Source: Octopus sinensis
Taxonomy: Eukaryota
Length of the DNA stretch: 64,000 nucleotides
NCBI RefSeq assembly: GCF_006345805.1
Contig: NC_042999.1
Span: 24,118,001-24,182,000, forward strand
Reading direction: 5' to 3'
The position numbers were made by a program. Shown in pieces: positions 1 through 30,000 of the stretch. Positions within the stretch are counted from its first letter, which is position 1, and each line of letters starts with the position of its first letter.

Positions 1-3000
1 ATAGACAGATAATGTTATACGTAAATTCTGTTGTGTCTGGGGAGAGTCATTTTCTTTTTGTGCCTTATAACATAACGCACTCACCGGTAAAATTTCCACT
101 TTTTTCTTACTTTTATTTTCCTAAAATTTTCGTTGCGTCTTGCAACCTTTTCAATAAGAAAATGACTCTCCCCAGACACAACAGAATATGCTTCAACACA
201 CGAAATCATATAAAGAAACTTGCAAACCAAATCCAAAAACGTTATACGTAAAGACATAATAAAACCAAATAACAAATGTGTGTATGTGCGTGCATGCGTA
301 GGCGTGATTGATAGTTAGGATGTAGTGCTCATGATCGTAAGATTGAGGTTTCGATTCCTGGACCAGGCGATGCATTATGTTCTTGAGCAAATCCCTTCAT
401 TTCACATATTTTCAGTCTATTCAGCTGACAAAAATAAGTAATTCCGTAGTACGGAACCGTCCCTCGTCTAGCGAGGAACTAAAATTGCCAGAAAATCCGG
501 GAAACCAGCCATATGAGCCTATAGCTGGTGAAGGACCTTCATCCATTTTGATAGACAGGCAGAGAGCTAGATTACATAGAGAGATTGATGCATCACTTTT
601 GAAAAAGCAAATTTTAGTAACTGTAAATATATAAATACCTATCGAACAATCATTTCCTCTGTACCCTGGTTGACACTGACAGGAAAAACTTGTATTTACG
701 TTAGAACAAAGACCTCCATTTTGACAAGGGTTGCTGCTGCATGGATCAACTGAAAAAAATTATCATGAAATTCTTATGTACCCAAATATTAATAAACGAC
801 CAAAACGCCCCCCGTCCAATAGACGGTGCTGAGTTGTCAAACATTTAAACCAAATTTTCTCAAAACAACTTGTCCGACCGTCCCATTTTGTGGTATTATT
901 TCAAGCCAGCCGGCTTTCTTTGTTCAAACTGCACGTGCATTTTTCTCGCGTATGCGTAGTATCGATCACAATAGCTGATGTACTTGCGCGTACAAATGCA
1001 CGTTCCCACGACTTTATCGATCGCATTATCACCTGGAATCGATGTTTGTAATATTTTCAAGACTTATACACGCCCTGATACAGTCGGTATCTACATATCA
1101 AATTTGAGCGTATTCGGATGGAGGATGCCCGAGATCCTACAAGACGCACACATAGACAGACAGAACGATTTTATATAATAGATATGTCAGATATCATTTA
1201 TTTATGCATTTATTGATTGATTGATTTTGCTACACTCTTGTGGTGTTAGGAAAAGTGATATAACGATTATATTCCGAGCAAGAAAAAAAGTGGAAATGAT
1301 GTTATCGAATCAGAAACTAACATTTCTACTGACATGCAAGACTGAAGAAAAATATATATATACAATGCAAAATTGATGCAGCACAATATGATGCACAGCA
1401 TCCCACCCATAAAGGACAGTTGCAGGATGGGTCGAAACAATTGTCGTACAAAATGAAGATTAATACTAAATCCATCTTTGTTTACTCAATCGATTATTAG
1501 ATACCCATTCATCCATCTGCGTAGAATAGTAAATGTGTACAAACTGTTGGTAGGCTAGTTATTAATTTTGAATAAATACCTGTAGAACAATCGTTTCCCG
1601 TGTATCCCAGCTGACACTGACATATATAATCCGTTCCTTGGTTAGAACATATGCCTCCATAAAGACATGGTGAGCTACTGCATGGATCAACTGAAAGTAT
1701 ATCATAAGATTTACGATTGGCGTCTTTAATAAAGACTAATCTTTTGAAGATAGGGTTTTGATAAAGACTAATTATATAATTTATGATTGAGATCCTTAAT
1801 GAACATTCATCATATCATTTACAATTGACGTCGTTAATAAAGATTGATCGTATCATTTACGATTGAGCTCCTTAATGAACATTCATCATATCATTTACAT
1901 TTGACGTCGTTAATAAAGACTGATCGTATCATTTACGATTGAGATCCTTAATGAACATTCATCATATCATTTACAATTGACGTCGTTAATAAAGACTGGT
2001 CGTAACATTTACGATTGTTGTCTTTAATAATGAGTGGTGTTTACGATTGGCGTCTTAAATAAAGACCCATCATATCATTTAGGATTATAGTCCCTAATAA
2101 AGGTTTATATCATTTATGATTGATGTCTTTAATAATGACGGGTATTTACGATTGGCGTCTTAAATAAAGACCCATCATATCATTTAGGATTATAGTCCCT
2201 GATAAAGACTTATATCATCTACGATTGACGTCTTTAATAATGACTGGTATTTACGATTAGCGTCTTAAATAAAGACCCATCATATCATTTAGGATTATAG
2301 TCCCTAATAAAGACTTATCTTATCATTTACGATTGATGTCTTTAATAATGACGGGTATTTACGATTGGCGTCTTAAATAAAGAAGCATCATATCATTTAG
2401 GATTATAGTCCCTAATAAAGACTTATCTTATCATTTACGATTGATGTCTTTAATAATGACGGGTATTTACGATTGGCGTCTTAAATAAAGACCCATCATA
2501 TCATTTAGGATTATAGTCCCTAATAAAGACTTATCATATCATTTACGATTGACGTCTTTAATAAAGTCTGAACATATTTACGATTTGTGTCTTTAAATAA
2601 GATTGATCACATAATTTACATGTGACATCGTGAATAAAGATGATCATATCGTTTACGATAAAAATGAGAATTTGTGTTTAGAATATCATACAAATATCAA
2701 TTAACTTGACAGTATAAAATTTAGTAATAATTAACATGGATGAATTAGGAACCTACCCACAGAACAGACATATCCACTGTAAGCTGTCTTACATATACAT
2801 TTGAAAGAAGTTCCTTGATTTATGCACACCCCATCATTTAAACATGGTTTACTGCTACAAGGATCAACTGAAATATACAAAGTTTCGTAAATAAGATTTC
2901 GTCGGTTTCGACGATGAGCATTTTGTTTTCGACCAGCTCATTGAATCATCATGTAAATAGTTGAATATTCCATGGATATATGTAGTCTTAATGTAATTCT

Positions 3001-27000: not shown

Positions 27001-30000
27001 TATTAAGTTTTGCATCAATATGGCTGAAGATAAAAGTTAAGACTGGCAAGAACGTAGTATTAGCACCGCAATTACACATTACCTATCTTAATATTTTGAT
27101 TTGATGGTGAAATATTTTACCTACCGTCTATTTTAATGTAAAAGTATAACCACGCAGTCTCTCTTTTAAAGTTTGTTTTTTTCTGAATTATTGAGCCAAA
27201 TAAAACAAACCGACGTACACTCACACACACACACACACCACACACACACACACACACATCAGAAAAGAATGTCACTTAATGGCAGTGTGTGTCATAATTA
27301 ATTTCCTGTTACGGCTGTATACTGCCTGTGAATTCTAAAAGATGGAATAAAATTGGTTTTATCTGAATCCACCTTCTGACAATTCAAAGCCGTTTTGTTG
27401 CCGCCTCATTATACGAACGAACAATTATATTACACTCTGGGCAACTCCTAGACATGTAAAGTATAGAATACTTAAAAATCTAAGTAAAACGACAGTTAAT
27501 TTTTCAATGTCACGAAGAATGTAAGGGATACTGAGATTTCATTTGCTTTTATATAAGTTCATTGTTTTATATAATATAAGTCTGAAGTGATTATGTCGTC
27601 AGATTTAGGGACATATAATAAAGGAACATCATTCATAATACACACTAAATCGCTGAAAAATATTAAGTGTAGTTCAGTATCGTTGGATATGTTGTTTTAT
27701 AGATGGCTTGTAATGCACTGAGATTAGATATACAATTGAAAAATTATTAGATTTTAGTTGATCGGTGAAATATTAAACAGAAAAGCTGATTAGGAACCAT
27801 TTCCAAAAAGAGAAAAATAGCCTAACGATGAAAACGGAAAGAAAATTCATTAGTTGAAACATATGAAAGCCAGACATATTAACAATCATATTCTGTTCTT
27901 CAAATCAACAACAGCTACAACAATAATAAGATCTAAACCAAAAGCAAATGCAGTGTTAGTCAAGATATTGAAAGTTAAATGTGGGGAAATTCTAAATGCA
28001 AAATGATGGCAAGTTTACTGTGTGTTGTTAGAAACTCACCAATGAGACCAAACAAGTGAAATGTCTTCATAGTTCGGCTTTGTTGGAGGTCCGGTTGATG
28101 GGTGCCGTCCGCTGCCTGGACCGAATGTCTTCTAACTACTTATATATACCTATGGACATATATACATGAATGCAGGTGTGGGAGAGAGAGAGAGGAGGGA
28201 AGGAAGAGAGATAGACAGAGCGTTGGTGAAACATAATTGGCTAATTTTGTGGGGTGGAGAAGTGAATGTGAGGCGAGTTAAAAACAAATGTATAATGTAC
28301 TTACGTAGGTGCATAGACTTGCGGACAGGCAGGTCGGTTGGTCGGTAGGTAGGTTGGTAGGTAGGTAGGCATAGGTTGGTAAGATGGAAGGAAGGAGAAA
28401 AGGAAGTAAGTAAGGAAGGAAGATGGGTAGGTAAGGTGGGTAGGTATAGTGGAGTTGAGATTTTAGTGTTGTGGGCGGTTGAAGAATATTTATCCTTGGA
28501 CAAAGGACAAAGGTGGAAGACAGAGGCTGAAAAAGGCACTGAAATTGTATGGAAGATGATTTTGGTGGGTGATGGTAAGAGTAAGGAGATGAAATACATG
28601 TATTTGTGTGTGAGGGTGTTCGAAGTTCTCTGTGTTCGTGCGAGTCTTTGCATCTGTATGTAGGAAGATTTACATAGTGATGAGTAGAAAAGTATACATA
28701 CGGCGAGCTGGTAGAAACGTTAGCACGCGGGGCGAAATGCTTAGAGCATTCCGTCTGCCGTTACGTTCTGAGTTCAAATTCCGCTAAGGTCGACTTTGCC
28801 TTTCATCCTTTCGGAATCGATAAAATCGACTGGGGTCGATGTAATCAACTTAATCCCTTTGTCTGTCCTTGTTTGTCCCCTCTATTGTGGGCAATAAAGA
28901 AATAAGAAAGGTATACATTTGTAAAATAAAATGTCTTAGTGGGGTAAGAAGCTTGTTTCTAAACCACATGATTTCGGGTTCAATCCCATTGCCTGGCACA
29001 GTGGGTGTCTTCCACTATAGTCTCGGGCCGACCAAAGCCTTGTGAATGAATTTTGTAGAAGGAAACTGAAAGAAGCCCGTCGTATGTATATATATATATA
29101 TATATATATATATATACGTGGAGGTGCAATGGCCCAGTGGTTAGGGCAGCGAACTCGCGGTCGTAGGATTTGCGGTTTCGATTCCCAGACCGGGCGTTGT
29201 GAGTGTACTCTTTCGCCACAACTTTCTCTCACTCTTTCTTCTGTTGGCCTGCTCGCTTAGCCAGCGGGGTGGCGTCATTTGAAGGCTAAAACAATGCGAA
29301 GCGCATTGTGACCAGCGTTGTGTAACAACACCTGATAGCCTGGTCGGTCACGGTGATCACGGTGATATATATATATATATATATATATATATATACATAC
29401 ACATGTGTGTGTGTCTTTGTACCAGTGTTTGACTCGCTTCACTGCATGACAACCGGTCTTGGCTTGTTTACGTCGCCGTTACTAAAATTCTTCAAGGCAG
29501 TGCCCCAGTATGGCAACAGTCTTATAGCAGAAACAAGTACATGACAAAGTACACAGGTAAAAGAATGTGTGTGAGTTTGGATGTATGTACATATGTAAAT
29601 ACATGTATCACAGATTCCTTCATCTGAAATTGTACGAATGGACGACAGGCAGAACAGACATACGTGGACGGGTAGAATGATTGTATGTTGGACCCCCGTT
29701 TTGCCTGTTTTTTTTTTCCTACAAAAATAAGTTTAAAAAATAAGTTAACCCCAAAATTGATCGTAGTATTATCGAAAAAAAAACAAATTTCAAAAATCAA
29801 TATATCGATATACATTAAATACCGTATTTACTTTTGACTCCCAGCAGATGACGAAACTGGGGTTACATCAGTGTGTACGTAGTTCAAATTACATAAGCGT
29901 AACTCTGTTCATACACATATGAGCACGCACGCACATACACATACTAACATGTAAGCATGTATACACACGCGCGCACAGATACGCACAAACACATGCATAC

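What the first reader, a model, noticed from the sequence alone, without database searches (positions are those of the whole stretch)
639..28070. Hidden gene with unusual architecture: signal peptide - WSC - VWA(MIDAS) - EGF x10 or more
Seen: 15 exons, mostly invisible in the ORF track, splice into one open frame of about 681 codons with all 8 WSC Cys, a full MIDAS (DESGS...T...D) and 60 of 60 EGF Cys intact, which suggests purifying selection. Known: WSC is a putative carbohydrate-binding module (yeast Wsc1, Kremen, polycystin-1), VWA is a metal-dependent adhesion module, and matrilins pair VWA with EGF. Inference: a glycan-sensing plus metal-adhesion head on a long EGF stalk, possibly a lineage-specific matrix, adhesive, mucus or immune-recognition protein. 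I do not recognise this domain order as a named family.
Basis: partly seen in the sequence, partly recalled or inferred. Interest (0 to 1): 0.8.

Follow-up and report, generated by a model that had tools for sequence, protein, structure and literature searches.

The report
Unannotated WSC–VWA–EGF mosaic matrix gene
A real but incomplete multi-exon animal gene that strings together a sugar-binding module, a metal-dependent adhesion module and ten EGF repeats; this is an unusual shuffle of very common extracellular building blocks, not a new kind of system.

Summary
The core observation holds. On the minus strand, 14 exons with canonical AG/GT sites and matching phases encode a short start exon, a WSC domain split over two exons, one VWA domain and ten single-exon EGF modules. 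The WSC has 8 Cys. The VWA has a full MIDAS motif. All 60 EGF Cys are present.

The EGF exons are old copies under constraint. Synonymous sites are saturated (mean pS 0.75) while mean pN is 0.30, in 45 of 45 pairs, and similarity stops at the exon edges.

Four points are not confirmed:
- The signal peptide: exon 1 gives only 10 residues.
- The WSC-to-VWA junction.
- The 3' end, which runs off the window.

The VWA is 40-49% identical to molluscan multi-VWA and (VWA-EGF)n proteins. None of 262 fetched relatives carries a WSC-like segment. Three literature searches found no such family.

I read it as a lineage-specific secreted or surface adhesion protein, a new variant of the VWA/EGF matrix-protein kind. 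Interest is modest. The spliced model was not joined or searched; every search was exon by exon.

The parts
28140..28152 (-). TATA-like element (tatatataag), about 70-80 nt upstream of the ATG
   Evidence: Read directly. The 28001-30000 bin is the most GC-rich in the window, with the strongest GC skew (GC 0.42, skew +0.21). Promoter function is inferred, not tested.
28040..28070 (-). Exon 1, coding part: ATG plus 10 codons (MKTFHLFGLI) plus 1 base, phase out 1, donor gtgagt
   Evidence: A at -3 of the ATG. The region is not repeated elsewhere in the window. It is too short to be a signal peptide by itself.
26952..27023 (-). Candidate exon 2 (72 nt, phase 1-1, hydrophobic start). Unverified.
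   Evidence: The acceptor is good (cttaacttttatcttcag) but the donor is weak (gttaga). It is not a repeat. No homologue or transcript supports it.
25289..25422 (-). WSC exon a (134 nt, phase 1 in, 0 out), first half of the WSC domain, 3 Cys
   Evidence: Pfam WSC E 4.1e-5, profile 1-45 of 82. Its only PDB matches, 4 of 4, are the Kremen-1 WSC region, and these are weak (E 0.06-0.11). Splice sites.
23017..23140 (-). WSC exon b (124 nt, phase 0 in, 1 out), second half of the WSC domain, 5 Cys
   Evidence: Pfam WSC E 6e-4, profile 42-82 of 82. In the Atlas, 28 of 30 nearest named clusters are WSC, top score 0.94. No PDB sequence match. Splice sites.
16693..17259 (-). VWA exon (567 nt, phase 1-1): a whole VWA domain bracketed by Cys, with a complete MIDAS motif (DESGS...T...D)
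   Evidence: Pfam VWA E 1.4e-46. PDB matches are collagen VI alpha-3, mussel PTMP1 and the integrin alpha-X I domain, with the MIDAS columns aligned. Relatives are 40-49% identical.
14306..14419 (-). EGF1 exon (114 nt, phase 1-1)
   Evidence: (E 3.4e-4, 21.3 bits)
12985..13095 (-). EGF2 exon (111 nt, phase 1-1)
   Evidence: (E 3.2e-8)
11233..11343 (-). EGF3 exon (111 nt, phase 1-1)
   Evidence: (E 4.2e-8)
9694..9804 (-). EGF4 exon (111 nt, phase 1-1)
   Evidence: (E 1.5e-8)
8046..8156 (-). EGF5 exon (111 nt, phase 1-1)
   Evidence: (E 2.7e-5)
7097..7207 (-). EGF6 exon (111 nt, phase 1-1)
   Evidence: (E 4.7e-6)
4667..4777 (-). EGF7 exon (111 nt, phase 1-1)
   Evidence: (E 1.1e-6)
2757..2867 (-). 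EGF8 exon (111 nt, phase 1-1)
   Evidence: (E 7e-7)
1580..1690 (-). EGF9 exon (111 nt, phase 1-1)
   Evidence: (E 2.7e-8)
639..749 (-). EGF10 exon (111 nt, phase 1-1). It ends in an open phase-1 donor, so the gene continues beyond the left edge of the window.
   Evidence: (E 2.9e-8). No further EGF pattern in 1-638.

Best explanation
This is one protein-coding gene of an AT-rich metazoan genome. The species is not identified; the nearest VWA relatives are molluscan. The gene is read right to left and only its 5' two-thirds or less lies in the window.

It encodes an extracellular mosaic protein. A short leader, not fully resolved, is followed by one WSC module, one VWA module with an intact metal-ion-dependent adhesion site, and a rod of at least ten non-calcium-type EGF modules, one per exon.

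Most likely mechanism (inferred):
- The WSC module binds a glycan. I favour a structural polysaccharide or mucin-type glycan.
- The VWA MIDAS binds an acidic side chain of a protein partner through a divalent cation, as collagen-binding VWA domains do.
- The EGF rod holds this two-handed head away from whatever the missing C-terminus attaches to.

In effect it would cross-link a polysaccharide to a protein matrix. This is the job that molluscan Pif/BMSP proteins do with a VWA plus a chitin-binding domain.

Shown: the exons, the domains, the motifs and the constraint. Inferred: one transcript, secretion, the ligands and the cross-linking role.
For: Gene structure:
- The 14 exons have canonical splice signals and matching phases (1/1, 0/0, then 1/1 throughout), and no split codon is a stop.
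- A TATA-like element lies upstream and there is an A at -3 of the ATG.

Domains and motifs:
- Domain matches are; the MIDAS columns align to an integrin I domain.
- All 8 WSC Cys and all 60 EGF Cys are present.

Constraint on the EGF exons:
- Mean pS is 0.75 (saturated) against mean pN 0.30, with pN below pS in 45 of 45 pairs.
- BLAST similarity between EGF units ends within about 8-22 nt of the exon borders, while the introns are filled with unrelated repeats.

WSC and VWA in one gene:
- No credible separate signal-peptide exon lies in the 5.7-kb WSC-VWA intron. The three nested candidates share one weak donor at 21434 and sit in a repeat with copies at 58.6-59.5 kb.
- In the closest (VWA-EGF)n relative, P0116, a hydrophobic leader runs straight into the first VWA. 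The VWA exon here therefore needs upstream coding exons, and the WSC exons are the only ones found.

Collagen- or matrix-binding precedent for the VWA:
- The best solved matches are collagen VI alpha-3 and mussel proximal thread matrix protein 1.

Pif/BMSP precedent for VWA plus a carbohydrate-binding domain in molluscs:
- PMC11291548 (abstract and passages seen).
Against: - No transcript evidence joins any of these exons.
- Phase compatibility at 23017/17259 is weak evidence, because nearly all extracellular module exons are phase 1.
- Exon 1 gives only 10 residues, and the only candidate for the rest of a leader has a weak donor. Secretion is therefore unproven.
- Each WSC half alone is below Pfam's gathering score (24.2 and 20.4 against 27.8 bits). 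The joined domain was not scanned.
- No orthologue with this architecture was found that could show conservation of the combination.
- The C-terminus is unknown.
- Ligands are guessed from family names.
Confidence: 0.55

Rival explanations
1. Two adjacent genes on the same strand: a small secreted WSC protein (exon 1 to 23017 plus an unseen terminal exon), and a separate VWA-EGF matrix protein of the (VWA-EGF)n / collagen VI-like kind whose own leader exon I failed to find.
For: The WSC-VWA intron is the longest in the model, at 5.76 kb against 0.8-2.6 kb for the others (coordinates). All 262 fetched VWA relatives lack WSC. The relative P0116 starts with a leader directly before its VWA. Phase 1-1 compatibility arises easily by chance among extracellular exons.
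Against: No plausible leader exon lies upstream of the VWA exon. The only candidates sit in a dispersed repeat and have a weak donor. WSC exon b ends in a strong gtaagt donor in phase 1, not in a stop. Part of the long intron's extra length is taken up by transposon-like ORFs and short dispersed repeats.
Confidence: 0.2
2. The window shows only the N-terminal ectodomain of a much larger membrane-anchored receptor or giant matrix protein, with more EGFs, other modules and perhaps a transmembrane segment beyond position 1. The 'head on a stalk' picture would then be incomplete and the function could be signalling rather than cross-linking.
For: EGF10 ends with an open phase-1 donor 638 nt from the window edge, and no terminal exon is seen. 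Relatives with VWA plus EGF arrays reach 1583-6024 aa and add VWD or other modules.
Against: Nothing speaks directly against it. It is compatible with the exons seen and differs from the best explanation only in what lies outside the window.
Confidence: 0.3
3. A non-functional or unexpressed exon array (a young pseudogene, or a gene that has lost its 5' end). This would explain why no protein in the collections matches it closely.
For: No near-identical protein was found in either protein collection. The 5' end could not be completed into a signal peptide.
Against: There are about 656 codons without a stop in a 36% GC genome, where roughly 7% of random codons would be stops (my estimate from the composition). 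All 26 splice dinucleotides are intact. All 68 structural Cys and the MIDAS motif are intact. The pN/pS pattern shows long-term constraint, although this does not exclude very recent loss of function.
Confidence: 0.1

Closest known systems
Invertebrate multi-VWA / (VWA-EGF)n matrix proteins annotated 'collagen alpha-3/5(VI) chain-like' or 'collagen alpha-1(XII)-like' (e.g. Pecten, Argopecten and Mytilus records; unnamed representative P0116)
   Same: The VWA is 40-49% identical, with the same Cys-bracketed module and a complete DxSGS...T...D motif. In P0116 each VWA runs straight into an hEGF module of the same ...PC..PCKNGG.C... type as here.
   Different: These proteins have 3-21 VWA copies and no WSC: 0 of 262 by local phmmer, and 0 of 114 list PF01822. 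The window gene has one VWA, a WSC in front and ten EGFs in a row.
Matrilins (VWA - EGF repeats - VWA - coiled coil)
   Same: VWA followed by an EGF array. Matrilin-2 records are 31-35% identical in the VWA.
   Different: Matrilin EGFs are largely of the calcium-binding/cEGF kind, and the family is defined by a C-terminal coiled coil (PF10393, listed for the matrilin hits). No coiled coil can be assessed here because the 3' end is missing. Matrilins have no WSC.
Molluscan Pif/BMSP shell-matrix proteins (VWA + chitin-binding domains)
   Same: They follow the same logic of pairing a VWA with a carbohydrate-binding module in a secreted molluscan matrix protein (PMC11291548, abstract and passages seen).
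   Different: The carbohydrate module there is a peritrophin-type chitin-binding domain, not WSC. There is no long EGF rod. The main text of that paper has no occurrence of 'WSC'. This is a resemblance in how it may work, not membership.
Mussel proximal thread matrix protein 1 (PTMP1, PDB 4cn8)
   Same: It is the second-best solved match of the VWA (E 3.1e-42 over two domains), including the terminal Cys. It is an extracellular molluscan adhesive or matrix VWA protein.
   Different: It has two VWA domains only, with no WSC and no EGF.
Kremen-1/2 (Kringle-WSC-CUB), polycystin-1 and glycerotoxin (cbEGF-WSC-WSC-CCP)
   Same: These are metazoan extracellular proteins with a WSC module. The Kremen-1 WSC is the only solved match of WSC exon a. 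Glycerotoxin combines EGF and WSC in a lophotrochozoan secreted protein (PMC5336659, passages seen).
   Different: None has a VWA. Their partner modules (kringle, CUB, PKD/REJ, CCP) are absent from the window exons.

Membership tests
VWA domain (Pfam PF00092) | Full-length profile match above the gathering score | tested here: met
   159.3 bits against a 23.8 cut-off, profile 1-173 of 174
VWA domain with functional MIDAS | DxSxS, a Thr, and an Asp at the three MIDAS loops | tested here: met
   DESGS, TYT and TDG align to DGSGS, TYT and TDG of the integrin alpha-X I domain. That these columns are the MIDAS residues is established knowledge. Metal binding itself was not tested.
EGF-like domain (PF00008) | Six Cys in the C-C-C-C-x-C-C pattern and a profile match | tested here: met
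   Ten of ten exons have the six-Cys pattern. Nine of ten are above the 21.5-bit cut-off; EGF1 scores 21.3.
Calcium-binding EGF (PF07645) | Profile match above the gathering score; acidic D/N-x-D/N-E/Q motif before the first Cys | tested here: not met
   The best EGF_CA score is 23.6 against a cut-off of 27. Nine modules begin D-P-C or N-P-C and EGF1 begins E-P-C (listing), none showing the full D/N-x-D/N-E/Q motif; the consensus is recalled.
WSC domain (PF01822) | Profile match above the gathering score | tested here: inconclusive
   The two exon halves score 24.2 bits (profile 1-45) and 20.4 bits (profile 42-82) against a cut-off of 27.8. They are complementary and in order. The joined domain was deliberately not scanned.
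WSC domain (PF01822) | Eight conserved Cys | tested here: met
   3 + 5 Cys in the two exon translations. The Atlas places exon b among WSC clusters. Exon a matches the Kremen-1 WSC weakly.
Matrilin family | C-terminal coiled-coil oligomerisation domain (PF10393) | not testable with these tools
   The 3' end of the gene lies outside the window.
Pif/BMSP family | Chitin-binding (peritrophin-type) domain next to the VWA | tested here: not met
   No such Pfam match in any of the 15 scanned minus-strand ORFs.
Collagen VI / FACIT collagens | Collagen triple-helix repeats (PF01391) | tested here: not met
   None in the scanned exons. The part beyond the window is unknown.
Kremen family | Kringle before and CUB after the WSC | tested here: not met
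   No kringle or CUB match. The WSC is followed by a VWA.
Secreted protein | N-terminal signal peptide | tested here: inconclusive
   Exon 1 gives 10 residues. The candidate continuation is unverified. No signal-peptide predictor was available.

The most novel reading that the evidence does not exclude
The WSC-VWA-EGF(n) order defines a previously undescribed, lineage-restricted family of dual-mode adhesion proteins. In it a WSC lectin module has taken the place that peritrophin-type chitin-binding domains hold in Pif/BMSP proteins. The protein would tie a structural polysaccharide, such as chitin in cuticular or beak-like tissues, or a mucus glycan, to a collagen-like protein network through the MIDAS site.
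Probability: 0.15. Interest if true: 0.45.

Novelty: new variant of a known kind. Interest (0 to 1): 0.25.

Why it matters
If the single-transcript model is right, this adds a gene model that the protein collections I searched do not contain. It would also be an example of WSC, a module with few characterised animal roles, being recruited to a VWA/EGF matrix protein by phase-1 exon shuffling. That gives a concrete candidate for testing what metazoan WSC domains bind. It does not open a long-standing question or overturn anything. Mosaic extracellular proteins of this sort are abundant and fast-evolving in invertebrates.

Tried and rejected
Searches that found nothing close:
- Word-indexed searches with each WSC exon found no candidate sharing three 5-residue words. 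The tool itself calls this weak evidence, and only proteins of 73/78 to 2000 aa were searched.
- The exhaustive HMMER search with the VWA exon returned 150 rows that all have 3 or more VWA stretches and at least 282.7 bits. A single-VWA orthologue scoring below that (I estimate under roughly 70% identity) could not have been listed. The search excludes only a near-identical annotated protein.

Calls that failed or hit a limit:
- A first ticket collection came too early.

Attempts to complete the 5' end:
- The first scan for signal-peptide start exons was swamped by microsatellite translations.
- The filtered scan gave 5 candidates in 25.4-36 kb, none convincing.
- Candidate internal exons between exon 1 and WSC exon a gave only weak-donor options.

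Considered and dropped:
- The Cys-rich ORF at 24454-24612 as an exon. It lies inside the WSC domain's intron and has no Pfam match.

Other negative results:
- Rfam found no match in the window.
- Literature searches for the architecture returned only unrelated co-mentions. One search failed on a term that was too long.

Not done or not available:
No eukaryotic genome or transcriptome could therefore be searched for orthologous loci.
- Supplementary tables of PMC11291548, which list the VWA proteins of four molluscs, were closed. They may bear on whether such an architecture has been catalogued.

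
Full report
**What is there**

The window is AT-rich (32-42% GC per 2-kb bin). It is full of microsatellites and dispersed repeats and carries one 100-N run at 51636-51735.

A stop-to-stop ORF listing of the first 30 kb shows a series of short minus-strand frames with an EGF-like Cys pattern. It also shows one 255-residue frame at 16568-17335 and two short Cys-containing frames at 23009-23164 and 25265-25447.

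Pfam scans of these frames, each on its own, gave:
- EGF (PF00008) for all ten EGF frames, E 1.5e-8 to 3.4e-4. Nine of ten are above the 21.5-bit cut-off; EGF1 scores 21.3.
- VWA (PF00092) at E 1.4e-46, covering profile positions 1-173 of 174.
- Two complementary halves of WSC (PF01822): profile 1-45 at E 4.1e-5 and profile 42-82 at E 6e-4. Each half is below the 27.8-bit cut-off on its own.

Two other frames had no match: 24454-24612 and the ATG frame at 27975-28139.

**Exon structure**

One search places AG acceptors with pyrimidine tracts and GT donors (mostly gtaagt or gtgagt) around every module.

| Exon | Coordinates (minus strand) | Length | Phase in > out |
|---|---|---|---|
| Exon 1 (coding part) | 28070-28040 | 31 nt | 0 > 1 |
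| WSC-a | 25422-25289 | 134 nt | 1 > 0 |
| WSC-b | 23140-23017 | 124 nt | 0 > 1 |
| VWA | 17259-16693 | 567 nt | 1 > 1 |
| EGF1 | 14419-14306 | 114 nt | 1 > 1 |
| EGF2 | 13095-12985 | 111 nt | 1 > 1 |
| EGF3 | 11343-11233 | 111 nt | 1 > 1 |
| EGF4 | 9804-9694 | 111 nt | 1 > 1 |
| EGF5 | 8156-8046 | 111 nt | 1 > 1 |
| EGF6 | 7207-7097 | 111 nt | 1 > 1 |
| EGF7 | 4777-4667 | 111 nt | 1 > 1 |
| EGF8 | 2867-2757 | 111 nt | 1 > 1 |
| EGF9 | 1690-1580 | 111 nt | 1 > 1 |
| EGF10 | 749-639 | 111 nt | 1 > 1 |

Every phase matches its neighbour, and none of the split codons, read off, is a stop. The 14 exons sum to 1969 nt, about 656 codons.

A six-frame scan for the six-Cys EGF spacing found 11 matches in the whole window. 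Ten are these exons. One is a microsatellite translation at 30434-30532. None is on the + strand.

No search, domain scan or fold of a spliced model was made, and everything below is exon by exon.

Confirmed points:
- The 8 WSC Cys: 3 in exon a and 5 in exon b.
- All 60 EGF Cys.
- The MIDAS motif: DESGS, TYT and TDG in the VWA exon align column for column with DGSGS, TYT and TDG of the integrin alpha-X I domain. That these columns are the MIDAS residues is established knowledge.
- The junction 23017/17259 has good signals on both sides.

Three points are not confirmed.

1. *Signal peptide.* Exon 1 has a TATA-like element about 70-80 nt upstream, an A at -3 of the ATG and a strong donor. It encodes only ten residues.
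That candidate starts hydrophobic and has a good acceptor, but its donor (gttaga) is weak. It is not a repeat, and nothing else supports it. Scans for other leader exons gave nothing convincing.
3. *Completeness.* EGF10 ends in an open phase-1 donor 638 nt from the window edge with no further module. The frame is therefore a 3'-truncated fragment of a gene, not a whole one.

**Constraint**

The ten EGF exons are about 60% identical in nucleotides. Across all 45 pairs the mean proportion of synonymous differences is 0.75, which is saturation. The mean non-synonymous proportion is 0.30, and pN is below pS in 45 of 45 pairs.

BLAST of each exon with 200-nt flanks shows that similarity between units stops within roughly 8-22 nt of the exon borders. 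The introns carry unrelated SINE-like and other repeats. These are old duplicates kept intact by selection, not a recent array drifting to decay.

**Relatives**

*VWA exon, word-indexed collection (proteins of 330-2000 aa).* It found 114 proteins at E <= 1e-10.
- The best are molluscan 'collagen alpha-3/5(VI)-like' and 'alpha-1(XII)-like' multi-VWA proteins at 36-43% identity, followed by fish collagen VI chains, matrilin-2 and FACIT collagens.
- 0 of 114 list PF01822.

*VWA exon, exhaustive HMMER search.*
- 11226 proteins at E <= 0.001.
- The 150 listed rows all have at least 3 VWA stretches and at least 282.7 bits. The top identity is 49% (P0116 and P0127).
- A single-VWA orthologue scoring below that (I estimate under roughly 70% identity) would not have been listed.
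- I expect a near-identical annotated protein would have scored above the 282.7-bit floor, and none is listed. I conclude the gene is absent from both collections as a predicted protein.

*Closest relative.* P0116 is a (VWA-EGF)n protein. Each Cys-bracketed VWA with a full DDSGS...T...D motif runs directly into an hEGF of the same type as here, and a hydrophobic leader precedes the first VWA.

*WSC exons.*
- Local phmmer of the two WSC exon peptides against all 262 stored relatives gave nothing. The best E values were 0.77 and 0.53.
- Neither WSC exon found any word-sharing candidate in the large collection, which is weak evidence by the tool's own account.
- The Atlas puts WSC exon b among WSC clusters: 28 of 30 hits, top score 0.94.
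- The Atlas puts the VWA among mostly molluscan VWA clusters.
- WSC exon a's only PDB matches, 4 of 4, are the Kremen-1 WSC, and they are weak (E 0.06-0.11). Exon b has none.

**One gene or two?**

The WSC-VWA intron is the longest, at 5.76 kb. It also holds transposon-like ORFs at 18607-19646 (+), with a weak DDE_3 match at E 0.11, and short dispersed repeats.

The only leader-like start exons in it are three nested options sharing a weak donor at 21434. They sit inside a repeat with copies at 58654-58814 and 59370-59539. No candidate lies between the VWA and EGF1 exons. WSC exon b ends in a strong donor, not a stop.

I therefore favour one gene, but only transcripts can settle it.

**Likely function (inferred)**

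The VWA has a complete MIDAS. Its nearest solved relatives are collagen VI alpha-3 and the mussel byssal thread protein PTMP1. This points to cation-dependent binding of a protein partner in a matrix.

The EGFs lack the calcium-binding signature. The best EGF_CA score is 23.6 against a cut-off of 27.

By recalled consensus rules, not tested here:
- 6 of 10 EGFs carry the C-x-S-x-P-C O-glucose site.
- 3 of 10 carry the C-x4-S/T-C O-fucose site between the second and third Cys.

This would fit a glycosylated rod.

WSC is a putative carbohydrate-binding module. A VWA paired with a carbohydrate-binding domain is the design of the molluscan Pif/BMSP shell-matrix proteins (PMC11291548, abstract and passages seen). 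That paper reports some 111 VWA-domain proteins in one cephalopod genome and never mentions WSC in its main text.

My best reading is a secreted or surface-attached cross-linker between a glycan and a protein matrix. Its membrane anchoring is unknown.

**Comparison and novelty**

It is not a matrilin: the coiled coil is untestable and matrilins have no WSC. It is not a Pif/BMSP member, because it has no chitin-binding domain. It is not a collagen VI or FACIT chain, because no triple helix is seen. It is not a Kremen, because it has no kringle or CUB.

Glycerotoxin (cbEGF-WSC-WSC-CCP; PMC5336659, passages seen) is the only lophotrochozoan EGF-plus-WSC protein that my searches turned up, and it has no VWA.

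Three full-text searches found no description of a WSC-VWA-EGF family:
- 'WSC domain' + VWA + EGF.
- 'WSC domain' + cephalopod.
- WSC + VWA + extracellular matrix + invertebrate.

I had no access to InterPro or CDART architecture tables or to any eukaryotic genome collection, so 'not seen' is limited to these sources.

I class it as a new variant of the VWA/EGF mosaic matrix-protein kind. The species is not identified. A cephalopod origin is only my impression from the repeat landscape and was not tested.

**Verdict**

This is a genuine, apparently unannotated, constrained gene fragment with an uncommon but unsurprising module order. Interest is 0.25. The decisive work is transcript mapping across the two uncertain junctions and extension of the contig to the left.

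Noticed in passing
window 1761-2659: Minisatellite in the EGF9-EGF8 intron. Nested periods of 38, 76 and 108 nt, about 7 copies of the 108-nt unit at 86% matches.
   Followed up: partly
window 13954-14249, 5756-6086, 3260-3451, 7547-7822, 29119-29245: SINE-like dispersed repeat, 76-95% identical between copies. It sits in introns of the gene and upstream of it. Rfam and its tRNA models gave no match in the window.
   Followed up: partly
window 9504-9577 and 9877-9934, with 9 matching places elsewhere in the window (e.g. 16471, 3645, 26195, 37418, 42525, 60967, 62898): Short (about 60-75 nt) dispersed repeat, 77-95% identical between copies. It occurs in both orientations flanking EGF4.
   Followed up: no
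window 18607-19646 (+): Frame-broken transposase-like ORFs inside the WSC-VWA intron. There is only a weak DDE_3 match (E 0.11). The resemblance to Tc1/mariner is my recollection.
   Followed up: partly
window 38683-38982 (-) and 56029-56328 (-): Two 99-residue ORFs with nearly the same sequence. I recall this motif from the C-terminus of mariner transposases. No Pfam match.
   Followed up: partly
window 49117-50049 (-), 48780-49055 (-), 50678-51202 (-): Retroelement remnant. One ORF has a sub-threshold reverse transcriptase match (RVT_1, E 5.6e-4, 20.1 bits). Similar tail sequences recur at 23826-24230 (+) and 26690-26950 (+).
   Followed up: partly
window 51636-51735: Run of 100 N. Left as it is.
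   Followed up: no
window 28001-30000: The highest-GC bin of the window with the strongest positive GC skew (GC 0.42, skew +0.21). It lies directly upstream of exon 1 on the gene's strand and may be the promoter region.
   Followed up: no
window 24454-24612 (-): Cys-rich 52-residue ORF inside the intron that splits the WSC domain. No Pfam match at E <= 5. I take it for chance.
   Followed up: partly
window 37769-38347: About 580 nt of purine-rich simple sequence that reads as long poly-E/K/R or poly-S/L ORFs in all frames. Low-complexity DNA, not a gene.
   Followed up: no
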